DNA from: the human T2T-CHM13v2.0 reference genome, Homo sapiens | NCBI RefSeq assembly: GCF_009914755.1 | Contig: NC_060929.1 | Reading direction: 5' to 3' (one strand) | DNA length: 64,000 nucleotides | The notes under the pieces: model-generated | Databases searched by the model: none | What the model was told of the DNA's origin: nothing | What the model saw: the letters and a program-made list of their open reading frames with translations, nothing else | Shown here: piece after piece, positions 1,003 through 30,096 of the stretch | Layout of the letters: every line of letters begins with the position of its first letter | Numbering within the stretch: position 1 is the stretch's first letter | Made by a program: the position numbers and the translations under genes

Positions 1003-1152
1003 ATCCTGGCCAATGTGATCATTTTCATCTGTGGGAACCTGGCGGGAGCCTACCATAAGCACCTCATGGAACTCGCTCTTCAGCAAACATATCAGGACAC
1101 CTGTAATTGCATCAAGTCGCGGATCAAGTTGGAATTTGAAAAACGTCAACAG
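1003..1152 (+). CDS. ADCY2: Internal coding exon of adenylyl cyclase type 2 (probably exon 4): last TM helix of M1 plus start of helical domain before C1a
   Basis: Polypyrimidine tract ctctttctgtctctttAG (AG at 1001-1002), 150 nt = 50 codons ILANVIIFICGNLAGAYHKHLMELALQQTYQDTCNCIKSRIKLEFEKRQQ, donor CAG|GTAATG at 1152/1153; phase 0-0. Peptide recognised from memory as AC2; exon number is recalled, not shown by the window. Confidence 0.95.
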
Positions 1153-9599: not shown

Positions 9600-11780
9600 T
9601 AGCCAAGACTAGAGGTCCCTGTTCTCTTTGCGCTTAAATTCTAATAGCAGGTGATAGACTGTAACTTATCAAATCCATAATTTCATGAGAAGATATAACA
9701 AGATAATGTGACAAAGCATGGTGGCTGGAGAAGACCAAGAGGCCTATTGGAGGGGCCAGGCAGGGAGGCTTCTCTGGGGATGTGATATCTAGGTTGAAAT
9801 ATGAATTGCTGAAGGTCTCAGACCTAGGAGGGCCTGAGAAAAATGTTCCCAGCAAAAGAAGTGGGAACTACCAAGGTCCTGAGTCAGGAGCCAGGTGGCC
9901 TGTTTGAGAAACATAGGGGTCAGTGGGACAGTTGCGGGGAGAGAGGCAGGAGCCAGACTACACGCTGGGCCTTGCAAGGTGGGTCAAGGACTTGGGATGT
10001 TATACTGAGTGGGAAGTCACTGAAGGGTTTTGAGTAAGATAGCAACGTAAACTGATTAACAGTCTTAGAGGATCCTTCTAGCTCCTAGTAGAGGATGGGT
10101 TGGAGAAGGGATGAGTGTTAGTAGGTGACTCCTTGGAAGCCATGGCATACTATGGCAGCAGTACAGGCTGGATACAGGAATAGCTTGGGTGAGAGTGGAC
10201 AGATTTAGGACATATTTTAAAATTGATTTAGTATGGGTTACTTTTGGATTAGCTGCTGAGTGAAATAAAAATAAAATAATGAAGAGAACTTTCTGGGGTT
10301 TGAGCTTGAGCAACTGGATGATGGTTGGTGTGGCATCTAACATTTCAACATCTTGGTCACTTTATTTATTGGGAGGTAAGGTACAGTAGAAATCCAGATT
10401 TGAGTTTTTAACAGCTAATTTCAAGATGCCAAGCAGCAGCTGTAAATAAGATCTGGAGTTAAAGATGTGAACTTGAAAGTCATCAGCATATAGTTCCTAT
10501 TTCAAGCTACAGGACCAGATGAGATGCCCCAAGGAGAGAGTGGGATTAGAAAAGATAAAAAGGGTCCAGGACCAAACCTCAAAGCACACTAACATTTGAG
10601 CAGGAATAGAGGAAGATGAAGAAGCCCAAGTCACTGAGAAAAATCAACCAGTTATATAGATGATTTGTTTTTTCCTAATTTAGTCTTGAGTTCCCTCTCA
10701 TGATAGTGGCTGTAAACTCTAGCCCTGCCCTGACGGGGATCCTGGGGATGTGGTTGTGGGTTTTTCCCATGTGCCTTTCATGGGATCCTTCTTTGACCTC
10801 ACAGACAGCCTGATACCTAAGTGTTTAGCCTGTGGCCAGGTGTCCCTCTCACGGGAAGCTTGTTTATCCTGGCACATGCCCTTGTGGCTCTCATCTGACC
10901 TGTGTCTAGTTTATTCCTACCAAGGCAGCCACTCTCCCAGAGAGCCCTGACCAGGACAGAAGTTAGGATGGGGTAGAAGAGGCAACTCATCAGAACCCAT
11001 GAAATAACAGAAGCAGTTTATTGTTTACAGATCTGGAGAAGAGAGGGCGCAGCACCATTTGCAGGGCCAGCAAAAAGCAGGGAGCCATCCAGGACACACA
11101 GGCTCAACCAGCAGGTGCAGAATGAGAGAGAGAGGGAGCTGTGGGCCAAAGCCTTCGCTGGGGTTCAGGACATTGTGCAATCAGGTTTCTAATCGGTGGG
11201 TTTAGAACAAGCAGGCACATGCCCTATGGCATCATGCTGTGACTGAGAGAAGGTCAGTGTGGGTGGGATACCTGTGCAGTCTATGCAGGGTGTGGGGATT
11301 AGTAGGGTGTATCCAGCTGTCCTACAGGGAGGTGGTTACCAGAAGGCAGTATACAAGGCAGATGTCTTGATTGACCACCTTGAGAAACTGCAAGGAGGTA
11401 GGGGGGATGGAAACTGTGTCAAACATGATTAGGCTTTGCATGAGTAAGACCAATCTAAATTTAAAATTGATGCCAAAGCAACAAAAAATTATAAGAATTC
11501 ACCACAATAGGGGAAAAGCCAGAGAGAATGGTTCAATAGAAGCCAAGAGAAGAAGGTATAAGTGGGATAGTGGCCAACATAGTCACATGCTGTAGAGTCA
11601 TAGTGAGAAGAGGGTAAAGGAGTGACCACTGGTCTTGAACAAATGGTGGTCACCAGTGGCCTGGACAATAAGTTTAAGTGGAGCAATCATGCTAAAGTGA
11701 CTGAGGTTAGGTGAAGAGGAGACAGGAGGTGCGGAAGCCATGCAGTGAGTTCCCACAGCTCTTCTGATGTATGTAGCAGA
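9600..11780 (-). mobile_element. LINE-2 fragment split by the LTR at 10661-11506
   Basis: gggaggcttctctggggatgtgatatctagg, gtcatcagcatatag and gaagccaagagaag motifs; L2 sequence resumes colinearly after 11506. Confidence 0.75.
10661..11506 (-). mobile_element. ERVL-type solo LTR (MER54-like)
   Basis: TG...CA termini; reverse complement begins tgtggtgaattcttat, as I recall for MER54; near-perfect 5-bp TSD ATAGA/ATAGG. Confidence 0.7.
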
Positions 11781-12024
11781 GAAGAGGAGCCAAGAAATGC
11801 CGCGGGGTTTGTTTGTTCAAGATTTTCTATGCTCATGGCATAAATCAAAGTTGTATTACACATCTTAATAATGCATCTTTGGTAATACATTTTAAATTGC
11901 CTGTTAATTATTTCTAATTTATTATATTACATAGTTTTCCTAATATGTTGTATTCTGAATCATTGATTCTAAGGAAGGGATGGGTACAAGGGTTGGTTGA
12001 TTTTTATAGAAAGGCAACAGTTGG

Positions 12025-22263: not shown

Positions 22264-24429
22264 TTAGCAGCCAGCACACAGTGCATGTGGGCCCTGTGTG
22301 CTTGCAGAGGTTCGACCCCCATCTCCACCTGCTTTCCATGACCTGTGAATGGATGGTTTTGCACCAAAATTCATGTACCATACACACCTCAGAAATAGCC
22401 CTAAATATTTGGGAAAAGGTAGCCCCAAAGGAAGCTTTTGGAAATGTTCAATGCTCGTTGACACATCTTAAAAATTAAGAAAATGGCAACTAGAGGAAGA
22501 TCAAGAAGTACTGAGAATGAAGGTTATAAACCAGCTAGTGTGTTGCCAGGCATTTGGCCTTTTACTCTAGACTTCTCTTCCTTTTTCACCATCATTTGGC
22601 AAAATTTAGAAATTTAAACATCTACAAAGACTCATCAATCCTATCTGCTGTAGGTACAACTGTCCTTGACTTTCATGTTTTCTAATATTCTCTTTTCCCC
22701 TCTGTATTGAAATATTTCAGACTTAAAGTATAAAGCAAAAGAACAAATAAGCGGACCTTCTCCTTTTCTTCCTCCGTCCGATTAAAGGAGCCTGGGGAAA
22801 AGGCGCAATGCCAAGAGGGATTTAAATGCGCTCTGGACTTCAGTTTCCTCCTGCATAAAATGAGGATTCTAGACCTTATCATAATAGGTTTTCTTCCAGC
22901 CTTAATAGTCCATGAGATTTCACATTTTTCTGGTATTATTTTCAATCTGTTAGAAGCCTTCAAAGAAAATTATATGACTGGTTGCCTTTTTTTTCTTTTC
23001 AGTTTTACTGTATCTCCAATTTTGACTGTAATTTTCAGGTATTTTCTATGAATCCTTTCACTCCTTCCTATCTTTTCTATCTTGTGGGCAGAATGTTCAA
23101 TTCTTTTGGCACATTACTCACATCCTAGCTAATTATTTTCAGTAACTAAATACTCATGTGTGCTCATTATAAAAAACTCTTCAGAGCAAAGCATAAGAAT
23201 ATAAGTTTCTTAAGTGAAACTTCTTTGCATTTACGGGGAAGAATACTATGACATGATGGGAAAATAAGATTTTGCCTAGAAATATGTTCTACCATTAATA
23301 TTATCAGTTGCGGTCCAAGAACCTCACTATTCTTCATACTAGTGTTTCAAGTAATAAGCACTCACTGCAACAAATGCCATGGCAATAGAAAAAGCCAGGG
23401 TCTCCTAATGATTTAAGAAAAACTTTGCCAAGTAAAATCCCTGCGGGGTTAGAAACACTGACTTACTGTGAGAATTGAAATATATAAATATGTATACAAT
23501 ATACCAGTCTCAGGTCATAACATCCAGAAAATATTAACTATCGATAAAATGAATTAAAATCATTTTGTATCATTTAATATGATTTTGATAAGCAAAAAAG
23601 GCATTATTTTAAATTTGTGAAGTGAGTCATTTCTTTCATTGTAGGCAAAATAGATTTTCTGTCACATTCTGAAAAATAATAGAATTGGAAGAAGGTCTTT
23701 TGCCCATGGTTATGGCTTAGGCAAACAGTGATAGCTCAGAAGATAAGCTATAGAACTTAGTGGACATAAAACCTGTCTCATAAATTTGAGAGCTCTGTGA
23801 TACATCAGTTCTTCGGCTAAGAAAATGCTATCATTTTTACATCTTCAGGGTTACATAGTGGGATCCACTTTTAGAGATATAGCCTCACTAAAAGAATTTC
23901 TTTGTTCTTTTTTCTAACAATATGAAAACTTTTAAAATATGAAAAGCATAAGTAATGCCATTTTCCTGCTCTGCTTCTCATTTGGGTAACAACTGAGTAA
24001 AATGCTTCCCTTTATCTCCTAGAACCACAAATATTGTGTTGATGTGAATTGGAACATTGATATTAAAAACAATTTTGGTTGCTTGCATTCTGATTTGCCA
24101 TAAGATTAAGCCTGGACATTTGAGCTCTCTGGACATTGCATTTATTTATGGATGCATCATCAGTTTATAGCAAGCACAGCTGAGCTCTCAATGTTCTTCA
24201 TTAAACATGGTAAACTTAACAAATTCTAAGAGTCTGGAGGATCTAAACAGCTCTTACTAAGCTACCTACTAGCATGTACATTTCTAGAGAGAGGAAGAGA
24301 AGAATGAAAGTACATATTTTTTCTTCTGTTTATTGTATTTATGTGGGAGAATAAAAGCTGCAGACCACAGCATGCAGTGCTTCAGAGGGAGAGGACTTGG
24401 CAGGATGCCTTGCTTGCCTGACCCCTCTG

Positions 24430-25030
24430 AAGGCCAGAGTGTACCAGGGCTTAGGTCTCCAGTCTGTTCTCTGCCATTTACCCTTAGGGATCTCACCCAT
24501 TCTTACTGCTTTACAACCGTCTACACACTAATAACTCCATAGCTCCTATCTCTCCCCTGAAATCCAGACTCAAAGTCCAACTGTTTAGTATAGTCTTCAT
24601 TTGAATTAATGAATATCTCAAACAAAACATGACCAAAATAGAGCTCTTGATGGCCTCCTAAACCAACTTTCCCCCTCTTTACCCCTCTAGGTAAATGATA
24701 CTCCATTTACCCACTTTCCCAGGCCAGAACTCTAGGAGGAGCCATACTGGACTTTTTCCTCTCACTCCTCGTATCCAAGCCATCTGCAGATGGCCCCAGT
24801 TCTACCTTCAAAGTAAACCCAAAGACACTATTCCTTCCCCCTTACCATCCTCATCCAAGCCAGCATTCTTCTCCCTGGACCTCAGCACTCACTGAATTGT
24901 CCTTGTTCACACTCCTGCCTACCTAATGTATCCACTATACAGCAGCCACATTGAGCCTTTAAAATAGTTCATTAACTGGCATTACTCTCATCTTAACCCC
25001 AGGGAGTGAAACCCAAAGCCATCACTTTGG
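24430..25030 (+). mobile_element. LINE-2 fragment
   Basis: gatctcacccattct, ctcaaacaaaacatgaccaaaatagagctcttgat, tctaccttcaaa motifs. Confidence 0.75.
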
Positions 25031-28230: not shown

Positions 28231-28244
28231 AAAAAACGTGAAGA

Positions 28245-28446
28245 CGGCTAACACGGTGAAACCCCATCTCTACTAAAAATACAAAAAATAATTAGCCAGG
28301 CGTGGTGGCGGGCGCCTGTGGTCCCAGCTACTCAGGAGGCTGGGGGAGGAGAATGGCATGAACCCGGGAGGTGGAGCTTGTAGTGAGTGAGATCGTGCCA
28401 CTGCACTCCAGCCTGGGTGACAGAGCGAGACTCTGTCTTAAAAAAA
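28245..28446 (+). mobile_element. 5'-truncated AluY
   Basis: Starts cggctaacacggtgaaacc; Y-type gagaatggc.tgaacc and ggagcttg; perfect 14-bp TSD AAAAAACGTGAAGA (28231-28244, 28447-28460). Confidence 0.93.
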
Positions 28447-28709
28447 AAAAAACGTGAAGAATTTGTTCTTTTCCTGGCACACAGAGCTTAGAAAATATTA
28501 GGTAGTTTATTACAAATATTTTATCTTGATGTTGGCATCTAAAACAGTGAGGATACTGATCTAAATGAGAAATATTTGCTGACTGATTTAAACAAAAATT
28601 GCCTTAGATAACCTTCTGCAATTGACACTTTTTTTCCCATGTTTTATGAGTATAAAATATTATTATGTGGGTATTTCCCTATCACAAAATATCATGAGCT
28701 TTCAAAAAT

Positions 28710-28746
28710 TATAAATTCTTACCACTCCTGGGGGAGGAGTCAGTTT
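28710..28746 (+). promoter_or_regulatory. Candidate core promoter (TATA + Inr) for the internal first exon
   Basis: TATAAAT at 28710-28716; Inr-matching TCAGTTT at 28740-28746 (A = 28742, TATA starts at -32); no ATG between 28742 and 28850. Confidence 0.4.
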
Positions 28747-29340
28747 GGGGGCAGATTAAGAGTTCAGTTCTAGACTTCATTGTGAGGAGTTTGGTAGAAA
28801 TCCCAGAAGAGCTGTTGAGAAGACCAGTGGAGCCACACGTCTAGAGGTCATGGACCTGCGCTGGGCCAGAGATCTGCATTTGAGAGAAGCCAGCAGATCA
28901 GTAGCATTTACCACCCTGAGGCTGGGCGCAGTCACCACGGGACTCCTGACATTCAGAGAGCCAGGAGATAAAGAGAAGTCAGGAAAGGGCCTTGGGAAGA
29001 GATGGCGCATCCAGCGAGAGGAAAGCCAGGTGAGCATGGTGTCTAGACAGAGACAGCCCAGTAGACAGGGTTTCAGGAAGGAAGAAGGCAATGGCCTGTG
29101 TCCTAACAAGAGGAGCTCTGGTGGGGTGGCGGGGAGAAGCCTCACTGCAGCACAGGGAGGCCAAGAGGGAAAACGGGATCGAGAGAAGGTTATTTTACAG
29201 ATGAGGGAATGAGCAGCATGCCTGTACGCTATGGAATGATCCAGCAGAGAAGGAAACATGGATGTTGTGGAGAGGTAGATAGGCTGTTGGAGCGACATCC
29301 TTGAGTAGGAAGGAAGGGATGGGTTCCTTCCATGAAGCTC
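28730..29340 (-). mobile_element. LINE-2 fragment (antisense to ADCY2) hosting the candidate exon
   Basis: gagttcagttctagac, ctgggccagagatctgcatttgagag, gaggaaagccagg..agcatggtgtc, gggtttcaggaaggaag parallel the L2 copy at 10400-11560. Confidence 0.75.
28850..29029 (+). CDS. ADCY2: Candidate alternative first coding exon of ADCY2 (60 aa, MDLRWARD...IQREESQ), derived from antisense LINE-2
   Basis: gaggtcATGG (G at -3 and +4), 180 nt open, ends at phase-0 donor CAG|GTGAGC (29029/29030), same phase as the 1152 donor; in-frame TAA upstream at 28757-28759. I recall a short ADCY2 isoform with this N-terminus but cannot verify it. Confidence 0.7.
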
Positions 29341-30096
29341 TGACAGGAGCAGGAGCAGACATTTCCCCCTTACAGGAGGGATGTAGTGACATAGGCGGGG
29401 ATGCTGGCAGGTGGTTGTTTCTCCTGTCTTTTATTAGAGTTATATGTGTTTCTGCCTTCTCATTTTACAAGTTTGTCATTTCCTCATGCTCTTTGACTTA
29501 CTCCTTTTGTGTCTCCAAACACCCCACCTTCCTTGCCCTCCACCCATGCAAACACAGAGGGGTGGAAAACGGGAGCAGTTAATAAACATTGCTGCCACTG
29601 AAAATGCGAATGCCCAGAGGAGTGTACATGCCCAGGACTGCTGTCAATAGTAAGGGGAAGCAGCCTAGGACATCTTGAAATACTGAAAAGGAGGCCGAGA
29701 TCTTGGGACCTGGAAATCCCTGTTTAGGGGAAAAAATGCAAATAAGCATTGCCTACTTGGAGAGTGGCACCTTCTGAAATGCATACCTAGAGGATGTGAC
29801 TGGCTGAAACATTCGTGTTTCAAATTTTAGATGCCCTTTGAGATCCCTGTTAGGTTTTAGACACTGAGAGATCTAGAAATGTTGTTTCTGAGTTTGGGGT
29901 GGATGGCTCCCAAGGCTTTTGTCGTGGAAGTCGTCCTGAGCAGGCGTTTCCCATGACTGAGGGCTGGGACTAAGGAACCAACAGTAACTGTAAAGTGGTT
30001 GTGTAGGAAAGGGGCGCTACGTTCATGGCACTTTACCTGATTGTGTTATTTTGTTGCTTGTGTTGTTATTTCTGAGTGTCTGAATGTTTTTAGGAC

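What the first reader, a model, noticed from the sequence alone, without database searches (positions are those of the whole stretch)
28742..29035. LINE-2-derived alternative first exon that would make an M1-less, half-membrane adenylyl cyclase 2
Seen: deep in the intron, an antisense L2 fossil carries a strong-Kozak ATG (28850) and exactly 60 open codons ending at CAG|GTGAGC. This donor has the same phase 0 as the true exon donor, so it could splice in frame to the next ADCY2 exon. An in-frame stop at 28757 and the lack of a good in-frame acceptor favour a first exon over a cassette. The homologous spot in another L2 copy here (gaaaagccagagagaatgg, 11513-11531) has no GT, suggesting the donor arose by point mutation. 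Established: membrane ACs are N-M1(6TM)-C1-M2(6TM)-C2 and catalysis needs C1a/C2a pairing. Inference: the product replaces the N-terminus and all of M1 with a transposon-born peptide that has a hydrophobic patch (VAFTTLRLGAVTTGLLTF) and a basic patch (KEKSGKGLGKRWR), keeping both catalytic domains. It could be differently trafficked or dominant-negative. I recall that such a short isoform may already be annotated; the L2 origin and function would be the new part.
Basis: partly seen in the sequence, partly recalled or inferred. Interest (0 to 1): 0.8.

Follow-up and report, generated by a model that had tools for sequence, protein, structure and literature searches.

The report
Exon-like stretch in ADCY2 intron repeat
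A decayed ancient repeat deep in an ADCY2 intron happens to carry a start codon, 60 open codons and a strong in-frame splice donor, but nothing I could check shows that cells use it as an exon, so it is most likely an ordinary accident of sequence.

Summary
The sequence facts hold. ATG at 28850 has G at -3 and +4. Sixty open codons end at CAG|GTGAGC (29029/29030). An in-frame TAA lies at 28757. The donor is phase 0, like the ADCY2 exon at 1003-1152, and it would join in frame to the next exon, which I fetched from outside the window (…REESQ|ERLLLS…).

The stretch belongs to an old dispersed repeat: a profile built from 41 other genomic segments gives E 1.5e-26. Both the ATG (0 of 30 aligned copies) and the GT (3 of 34) are changes special to this copy. 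The name L2 rests on my recall; no tool here could name the family.

Nothing shows use as an exon:
- No protein with this N-terminus other than the unspliced 120-aa ORF in a 5.8-billion-protein search.
- No CpG island.
- No usable acceptor.
- The repeat family is T-poor and ORF-prone (6 of 23 copies have an ATG-ORF of 60 codons or more).

The configuration is rare per window but expected many times genome-wide.

Best reading: chance exon-like configuration (0.65). Rival: a real minor, possibly already catalogued, first exon (0.25). N-terminally truncated cyclases from intronic promoters are already known (AC3-AT, AC8).

The parts
28728..29417 (+). Decayed copy of an old dispersed repeat family (L2 3' part read antisense, by my recall only). 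It holds the whole candidate.
   Evidence: A profile of 41 non-window genomic segments hits 28728-29103 at E 1.5e-26 (alignment). A profile of 18 other segments hits 29167-29417 at E 2.9e-23. Motif counts in the genome: 19 against 0 for the control and 36 against 6.
28757..28759 (+). In-frame TAA that closes the frame upstream of the ATG
28850..29029 (+). ATG plus 60 open codons (MDLRW...REESQ). The ATG has G at -3 and +4, and there is no other ATG in 28711-28849.
   Evidence: None of 30 aligned family copies has an ATG at the homologous spot.
29030..29035 (+). Consensus-like 5' splice site CAG|GTGAGC, phase 0
   Evidence: It matches 8 of 9 consensus positions and scores 10.97, against 7.49 for the real exon's donor, using a matrix of recalled frequencies. 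The T of GT replaces the family's A: T occurs in 3 of 34 aligned copies, and in 0 of the 12 chosen without regard to this site.
29030..29212 (+). Read-through continuation of the frame if unspliced (120 aa in all)
   Evidence: The only database match, P0001 (120 aa), is this unspliced form, with 3 differences in 120 residues.
28710..28715 (+). It occurs at chance frequency.
   Evidence: There are 34 TATAAA on the + strand of the window, 0.53 per kb.
1003..1152 (+). Annotated ADCY2 exon that the hypothetical isoform would skip. It encodes residues 191-240 of a 1091-aa ortholog: the end of the last M1 helix plus the following helical segment.
   Evidence: Pfam AC_N positions 337-385 of 415.

Best explanation
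This is a chance exon-like configuration in an intronic repeat fossil. The stretch is purine-rich and T-poor. In this copy only, one A-to-T change made a strong splice donor, and a small insertion plus a substitution made an ATG. The low T content keeps the frame open. It is not used as an exon, or only at noise level, and it has no function of its own. Shown: the repeat origin, the derived state of the ATG and the GT, the frame compatibility and the ORF-proneness of the family. Inferred: the lack of use.
For: - Repeat membership: profile E 1.5e-26.
- ATG in 0 of 30 aligned copies. Donor T in 3 of 34 aligned copies, and in 5 of 35 other genomic pattern matches against A in 23 of 35.
- The region has 15% T against 30% in the whole window.
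- Among 23 other copies the median longest open frame is 66 codons, and 6 of 23 have an ATG-ORF of at least 60 codons. Both strands are open here, including a 173-aa frame on the minus strand. Neither ORF matches a Pfam family at or above its curated cut-off: the 173-aa frame matched none and the 120-aa ORF matched only DUF5570 weakly (E 0.11, 13 bits against a cut-off of 26.2).
- No promoter marks: CpG observed/expected is 0.2-0.3, and the TATAAA occurs at background frequency. The hub's table lists no RefSeq functional element here.
- The 60-aa peptide searched against 5.8 billion proteins of 106-2000 aa found 1 of 51 candidates, the unspliced 120-aa ORF. The same database holds hundreds of ADCY2 models, including many N-terminally shortened isoforms kept as separate entries.
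- 0 of 174 held proteins that contain the next exon carry the peptide. None of 25 odd upstream segments maps to 28742-29035.
- Base rate: 103 of 154,309 intronic L2 copies were exonized, and 2 of those gave an alternative coding start (PMC2394776, Tables 1 and 5 read).
Against: - The combination of a strong Kozak ATG, 60 codons, a very strong donor and the right phase is rare: 0 in the other 5 strand/phase readings of the window, 0 of 100 simulations and 0 in 167 kb of other loci. A real in-frame first exon would always look like this, so the configuration itself raises the odds of use.
- GENCODE is said to hold shorter ADCY2 isoforms with their own promoters (PMC10928376, passage read). Their places are not given in the text, and the figure is a PDF that I could not see.
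- From recall only: I believe UniProt lists an ADCY2 isoform 2 that lacks residues 1-180. That would be 911 aa, which is exactly the length of 60 aa plus residues 241-1091. I could not check this, and 10 new residues joined to the window's exon at 191 would give the same length.
- The protein search is word-based and works on clustered entries, and the tool itself calls a blank weak evidence.
Confidence: 0.65

Rival explanations
1. It is a real but minor alternative first exon born from the repeat. A weak intronic start site near 28710-28850 gives a transcript that splices from 29029 to the exon at 65565. The transcript may already be catalogued from a cDNA. It encodes a 911-aa AC2 without the N-terminus, the first membrane block and half of the following helical segment. 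By analogy with AC3-AT, the protein, if stable, would be inactive, held in the ER, and would act by trapping full-length cyclases.
For: - In-frame donor, stronger than the real exon's (10.97 against 7.49).
- First ATG after 28711 with a good context.
- The configuration is rare by chance.
- The next exon has a strong acceptor, and gene models of six other mammals of at least 600 aa, plus the 361-aa partial P0142, also join unrelated upstream sequence to it at residue 240/241.
- Precedent: AC3-AT comes from an intronic promoter, has a unique 28-aa N-terminus and lacks the first membrane block; the paper says the rodent and primate AC3-AT isoforms likely arose independently (PMC11971047, passages).
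- Shorter ADCY2 isoforms are said to be in GENCODE (PMC10928376, passage).
- My unverified recall of a 911-aa isoform.
Against: - No protein model with this N-terminus in any species.
- No CpG island or listed regulatory element (hub table).
- The ATG and the GT are private to this copy, and nothing shows constraint: the one related record differs at 3 of 120 residues and reads through the donor.
- No paper found.
Confidence: 0.25
2. It is a cryptic cassette or 'poison' exon: the strong donor pairs with an upstream cryptic acceptor, and inclusion breaks the ADCY2 frame.
For: The donor is strong. Most L2 exonizations inside coding sequence bring a stop or a frameshift: 50 and 8 of 66 (PMC2394776, Table 5).
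Against: No YAG acceptor with at least 60% pyrimidines upstream anywhere in 28600-29000. The in-frame TAA at 28757 and further stops lie upstream.
Confidence: 0.03

Closest known systems
AC3-AT (Adcy3-at), the cold-induced truncated adenylyl cyclase 3 (PMC11971047; abstract and passages of results and discussion read)
   Same: An intronic start site, a short unique N-terminus (28 aa there, 60 here), loss of the first membrane block, and a proposed dominant-negative action.
   Different: AC3-AT is shown by H3K4me3, short- and long-read RNA, a knockout and biochemistry. Nothing of that kind exists for this site. It is in a different gene, and no transposon origin is claimed for AC3-AT in the text I read (0 occurrences of 'transposable').
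N-terminally truncated AC8 variants of vascular smooth muscle (as described in the discussion of PMC11971047; the original papers were not read)
   Same: Shortened, catalytically inactive cyclases that hold other isoforms in the ER.
   Different: They arise by splicing of AC8. They are not from a repeat-born first exon and not in ADCY2.
Exonization of L2 and other old repeats (PMC2394776; Tables 1, 3 and 5 and passages read)
   Same: A point change in an intronic repeat creates a splice site. L2 exons exist in both orientations, and 2 L2 cases give an alternative coding start.
   Different: Those cases rest on ESTs or cDNAs. Here only the sequence potential is shown.

Membership tests
L2 (LINE-2) repeat family | Member of a multi-copy dispersed family, with a significant match to a family profile | tested here: met
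   Two window-derived motifs occur 19 times against 0 for the control, and 36 against 6, in the genome. A profile of 41 other segments matches 28728-29103 at E 1.5e-26 and three further places in the window.
L2 (LINE-2) repeat family | Match to the curated L2 consensus (Dfam/Repbase, RepeatMasker) | not testable with these tools
   No repeat library is at hand. The name L2, and the antisense orientation, rest on my recall of the consensus.
L2 (LINE-2) repeat family | Link to a LINE reverse-transcriptase reading frame | tested here: inconclusive
   No Pfam RVT hit in 0 of 60 and 0 of 70 opposite-strand ORFs of family copies. A PDB profile search and an Atlas search came back blank. Three of 41 segments show YADD-like strings on the opposite strand, which is only a lead.
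Alternative first exon | Transcription start and a splice junction seen in RNA | not testable with these tools
   No RNA-seq, CAGE or transcript table for this site. Indirectly, no protein model carries the peptide.
Alternative first exon | A donor in a phase that keeps the downstream frame | tested here: met
   Phase 0 at 29029. The next exon starts in phase 0 with ERLLLS.
Alternative first exon | Promoter-like sequence | tested here: inconclusive
   CpG observed/expected is 0.2-0.3, so there is no island. TATAAA lies at 28710, but the motif occurs 34 times in the window.
Cassette (internal) exon | An upstream acceptor with a pyrimidine tract | tested here: not met
   No YAG with at least 60% pyrimidines upstream in 28600-29000.
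Truncated dominant-negative adenylyl cyclases (AC3-AT type) | Protein lacking the first membrane block but keeping the rest | tested here: met
   This is conceptual only. The product would be 60 aa plus residues 241-1091, 911 aa in all. AC_N ends at residue 261, and the conserved and catalytic domains lie behind it.
Truncated dominant-negative adenylyl cyclases (AC3-AT type) | ER retention, no activity, binding of full-length cyclase | not tested
   This needs expression experiments.

The most novel reading that the evidence does not exclude
The repeat-born exon is really used in some cell type and makes a 911-aa AC2 without its first membrane block. Like AC3-AT, this protein stays in the ER and damps cAMP by trapping full-length cyclases. 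That would be a second, independently arisen and transposon-born case of this control in the cyclase family.
Probability: 0.05. Interest if true: 0.55.

Novelty: not a real feature. Interest (0 to 1): 0.15.

Why it matters
If the exon were used, it would show an old repeat giving a brain cyclase a truncated, probably inhibitory isoform. That would make truncated-isoform damping of cAMP, known for AC3 and AC8, look like a recurrent solution. As it stands, it mainly shows how a T-poor repeat that is one base away from a strong donor can imitate a coding first exon. The family position that became GT here also carries CAG|GTGAG in at least three other copies.

Tried and rejected
- Self-comparison of the region against the window found nothing below E 0.5.
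- A whole-genome DNA search found only the region itself. A six-frame search found the region itself plus eight matches at E 0.36-8.9. Pairwise searches are too weak for so old a repeat, so I moved to motif anchors and profiles.
- Pairwise blastn against anchored copies: 14 of 18 hit 29110-29417, but only 5 of 29 hit the donor region.
- Rfam on the region found only the neighbouring Alu. Rfam on 19 family copies gave 84 matches, nearly all SRP/Alu-type or microRNA families, and none names the repeat family.
- Attempts to tie the family to a reverse transcriptase failed.
- Pfam on the 120-aa and 173-aa ORFs gave nothing above the curated cut-offs.
- Paper searches for ADCY2 with alternative first exon, truncated isoform, exonization or transposable element gave nothing on this site. 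Searches for three database identifiers that I half remembered, and for Ensembl-style transcript names, found 0 papers.
- I judged a structure prediction of the 60-aa peptide uninformative and did not run it.

Full report
**Observation.** ATG at 28850 lies in ctagaggtcATGG, with G at -3 and G at +4. Sixty codons (MDLRWARDLH...RIQREESQ) run to 29029 and are followed by GTGAGC. The frame is closed upstream by TAA at 28757. Without splicing the frame stays open to 29212, giving 120 aa. The annotated ADCY2 exon at 1003-1152 is open only in frame 1 (ILANVIIFICGNLAGAYHKHLMELALQQTYQDTCNCIKSRIKLEFEKRQQ). It is bounded by ...ctctttag| and |gtaatg, so it is phase 0 at both ends.

**Frame with the next exon.** The next exon is not in the window. 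I searched the window's own genome with a gorilla ADCY2 model (P0102), which placed it at C5:7629559-7629714. I fetched that stretch. The exon starts at C5:7629565 (window-equivalent 65565) behind ttcctccttccccaccttgtccag| and begins in phase 0 with ERLLLSLLPAH. P0102 reads ...EFEKRQQ|ERLLLS.... The candidate donor would therefore splice in frame across a 36.5-kb intron. In a 1091-aa ortholog (P0185) the window's exon is residues 191-240 and the next exon starts at 241. The conceptual product is 60 + 851 = 911 aa.

In that ortholog Pfam AC_N ends at residue 261, the conserved cyclase domain is 495-600, and the catalytic family matches twice. The window's exon covers AC_N positions 337-385 of 415. 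So the product would lose the N-terminus, the first membrane block and also the roughly 35 residues that follow the last M1 helix.

**Repeat origin.** Direct comparisons failed: self-blast and whole-genome DNA and six-frame searches. Two motifs cut from the window, with N at variable places, occur 19 times against 0 for the reversed control, and 36 times against 6.

- Fourteen of 18 copies anchored on the first motif align pairwise to 29110-29417.
- A profile of those 18 hits 29167-29417 at E 2.9e-23.
- An iterated nhmmer profile, seeded on L059 and built from 41 segments, none from the window, hits 28728-29103 at E 1.5e-26. It also hits 24418-24788 (minus strand, E 3.1e-36), 10241-10657 (E 2.3e-17) and 11507-11597 (E 1.3e-5).

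I recognise the family as the 3' part of L2 read antisense, but that is recall. Rfam, Pfam on 130 opposite-strand ORFs of copies, a PDB profile search and the protein Atlas gave no name. YADD-like strings in 3 of 41 segments are only a lead towards a reverse transcriptase.

**How the exon-like features arose.** In the profile alignment the family has A where the window has the T of GT: ccAGgagAG becomes CCAGGTGAG.

- Among 34 aligned segments, 30 have A, 3 have T and 1 has G.
- Among the 12 segments picked without regard to this site, none has T.
- Among the 35 other genomic matches to the pattern, the free position is A in 23, T in 5, G in 5 and C in 2.
- The ATG needs an inserted A and a T, and none of 30 aligned segments has an ATG there.

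The family position is one step away from a strong donor.

**Why the frame is open.** The stretch 28850-29212 has 15% T against 30% in the window, so stop codons are scarce on both strands. The minus strand carries a 173-aa frame. Among 23 other copies the median longest open frame is 66 codons and the maximum 118. Six of 23 have an ATG-ORF of at least 60 codons. The window copy is the extreme case (150 codons stop to stop, 120 from the ATG), but 60 codons is ordinary for the family. Neither ORF matches a Pfam family above its curated cut-off; the 120-aa ORF gave only a weak DUF5570 match (E 0.11). The best 19-residue hydropathy mean of the peptide is 1.22, below the usual 1.6 for a membrane helix.

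**Chance.** I scored donors with a matrix recalled from the literature.

- The donor scores 10.97 and the real exon's donor 7.49.
- In the intronic part of the window, 5 GT sites score at least 10.97, and only this one has a phase-0 ATG.
- At 7 of 9 consensus matches there are 128 sites: 44 with an ATG, 5 with at least 60 codons and 10 with a strong-context ATG.
- The strict combination is absent from the other five strand/phase readings, from 100 Markov simulations and from 55 other human loci totalling 167 kb.
- With the donor threshold at 7.49, the rate is 0.08 per window in simulations and 5 per about 1.0 Mb of strand-phase in real loci.

The thresholds were set by the candidate itself. 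The configuration is thus uncommon per window, which does raise the odds of a real exon. It is still expected in large numbers over all introns.

**Evidence on use.** There is no CpG island (observed/expected 0.2-0.3). A TATAAA lies at 28710, but the motif occurs 34 times in the window. There is no ATG between 28711 and 28849, and no acceptor for a cassette exon.

The 60-aa peptide, searched among proteins of 106-2000 aa in a 5.8-billion-protein collection, found one protein among 51 candidates: P0001. It is 120 aa, from an unnamed source, and it reads through the donor with 3 differences. The collection does hold ADCY2 models in depth:

- 847 proteins contain the window's exon and 904 contain the next one, with shortened isoforms kept as separate entries.
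- Of the 185 proteins fetched, 174 contain ERLLLSLLP. In 148 it is preceded by EFEKRQQ and in 26 by something else. None carries this peptide.
- None of 25 odd upstream segments maps to 28742-29035 by tblastn.
- Six models of at least 600 aa start at residue 240/241 with unrelated N-termini.

The tool warns that a blank is weak evidence.

**Literature.**

- PMC11971047 (abstract and passages). AC3-AT comes from a cold-induced intronic promoter, has a unique 28-aa N-terminus, lacks the first membrane block, is inactive, stays in the ER and traps AC3. According to the paper, the rodent and primate isoforms likely arose independently. Truncated AC8 variants act alike. The proposed biology is therefore a known kind.
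- PMC2394776 (tables read). Of 154,309 intronic L2 copies, 103 are exonized, and 2 of those give an alternative coding start.
- PMC10928376 (passage). This paper says shorter ADCY2 isoforms with their own promoters are in GENCODE, without giving places.

**Open point.** From recall only, UniProt may list an ADCY2 isoform 2 lacking residues 1-180, which would be 911 aa. That is the length computed here. It would also fit 10 new residues joined to the window's exon. I could not check it, and speaks against it. A look at the public gene tables settles this in a minute.

**Verdict.** Use as an exon is not shown. Chance configuration 0.65; real minor or already catalogued first exon 0.25; cassette exon 0.03. 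Interest is low.

Noticed in passing
window 28293-28441: Alu-type element just upstream of the repeat fossil (Rfam Metazoa_SRP and mir-1268 matches below gathering score). It lies within the stretch 28243-28459 that NCBI masks.
   Followed up: no
window 24418-24788 (-), 10241-10657 (+), 11507-11799 (+): Three further pieces of the same repeat family lie in this intron. The two + strand pieces, about 850 bases apart, may be one copy split by an insertion.
   Followed up: partly
window 28777-29298 (-): A 173-aa open frame lies on the opposite strand of the same fossil, with no Pfam match. It is best explained by the skewed base composition.
   Followed up: partly
window 1003-1152; proteins P0152, P0162, P0181: Gene models of a cat, an elephant and cattle skip this 150-base exon in frame (...EHLVWQ|ERLLLS...). 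That would delete the end of the last M1 helix and the segment after it.
   Followed up: no
next exon, G000:C5:7629565 (window-equivalent 65565); proteins P0141, P0142, P0144, P0146-P0149: Several mammalian gene models join unrelated upstream sequence to this same acceptor. One has an Alu-derived N-terminus in a titi monkey model (its N-terminus hits many Alus of the window), and two are intron read-ins. A whale model (P0112) and a bird model (P0018) put an extra coding cassette between the two exons.
   Followed up: partly
loci L057, L040, L032: Three other copies of the repeat family carry the same A-to-T change, giving CAG|GTGAG at the homologous position. The family site is therefore a recurrent near-donor. 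Whether any of them lies in an exon was not checked.
   Followed up: no
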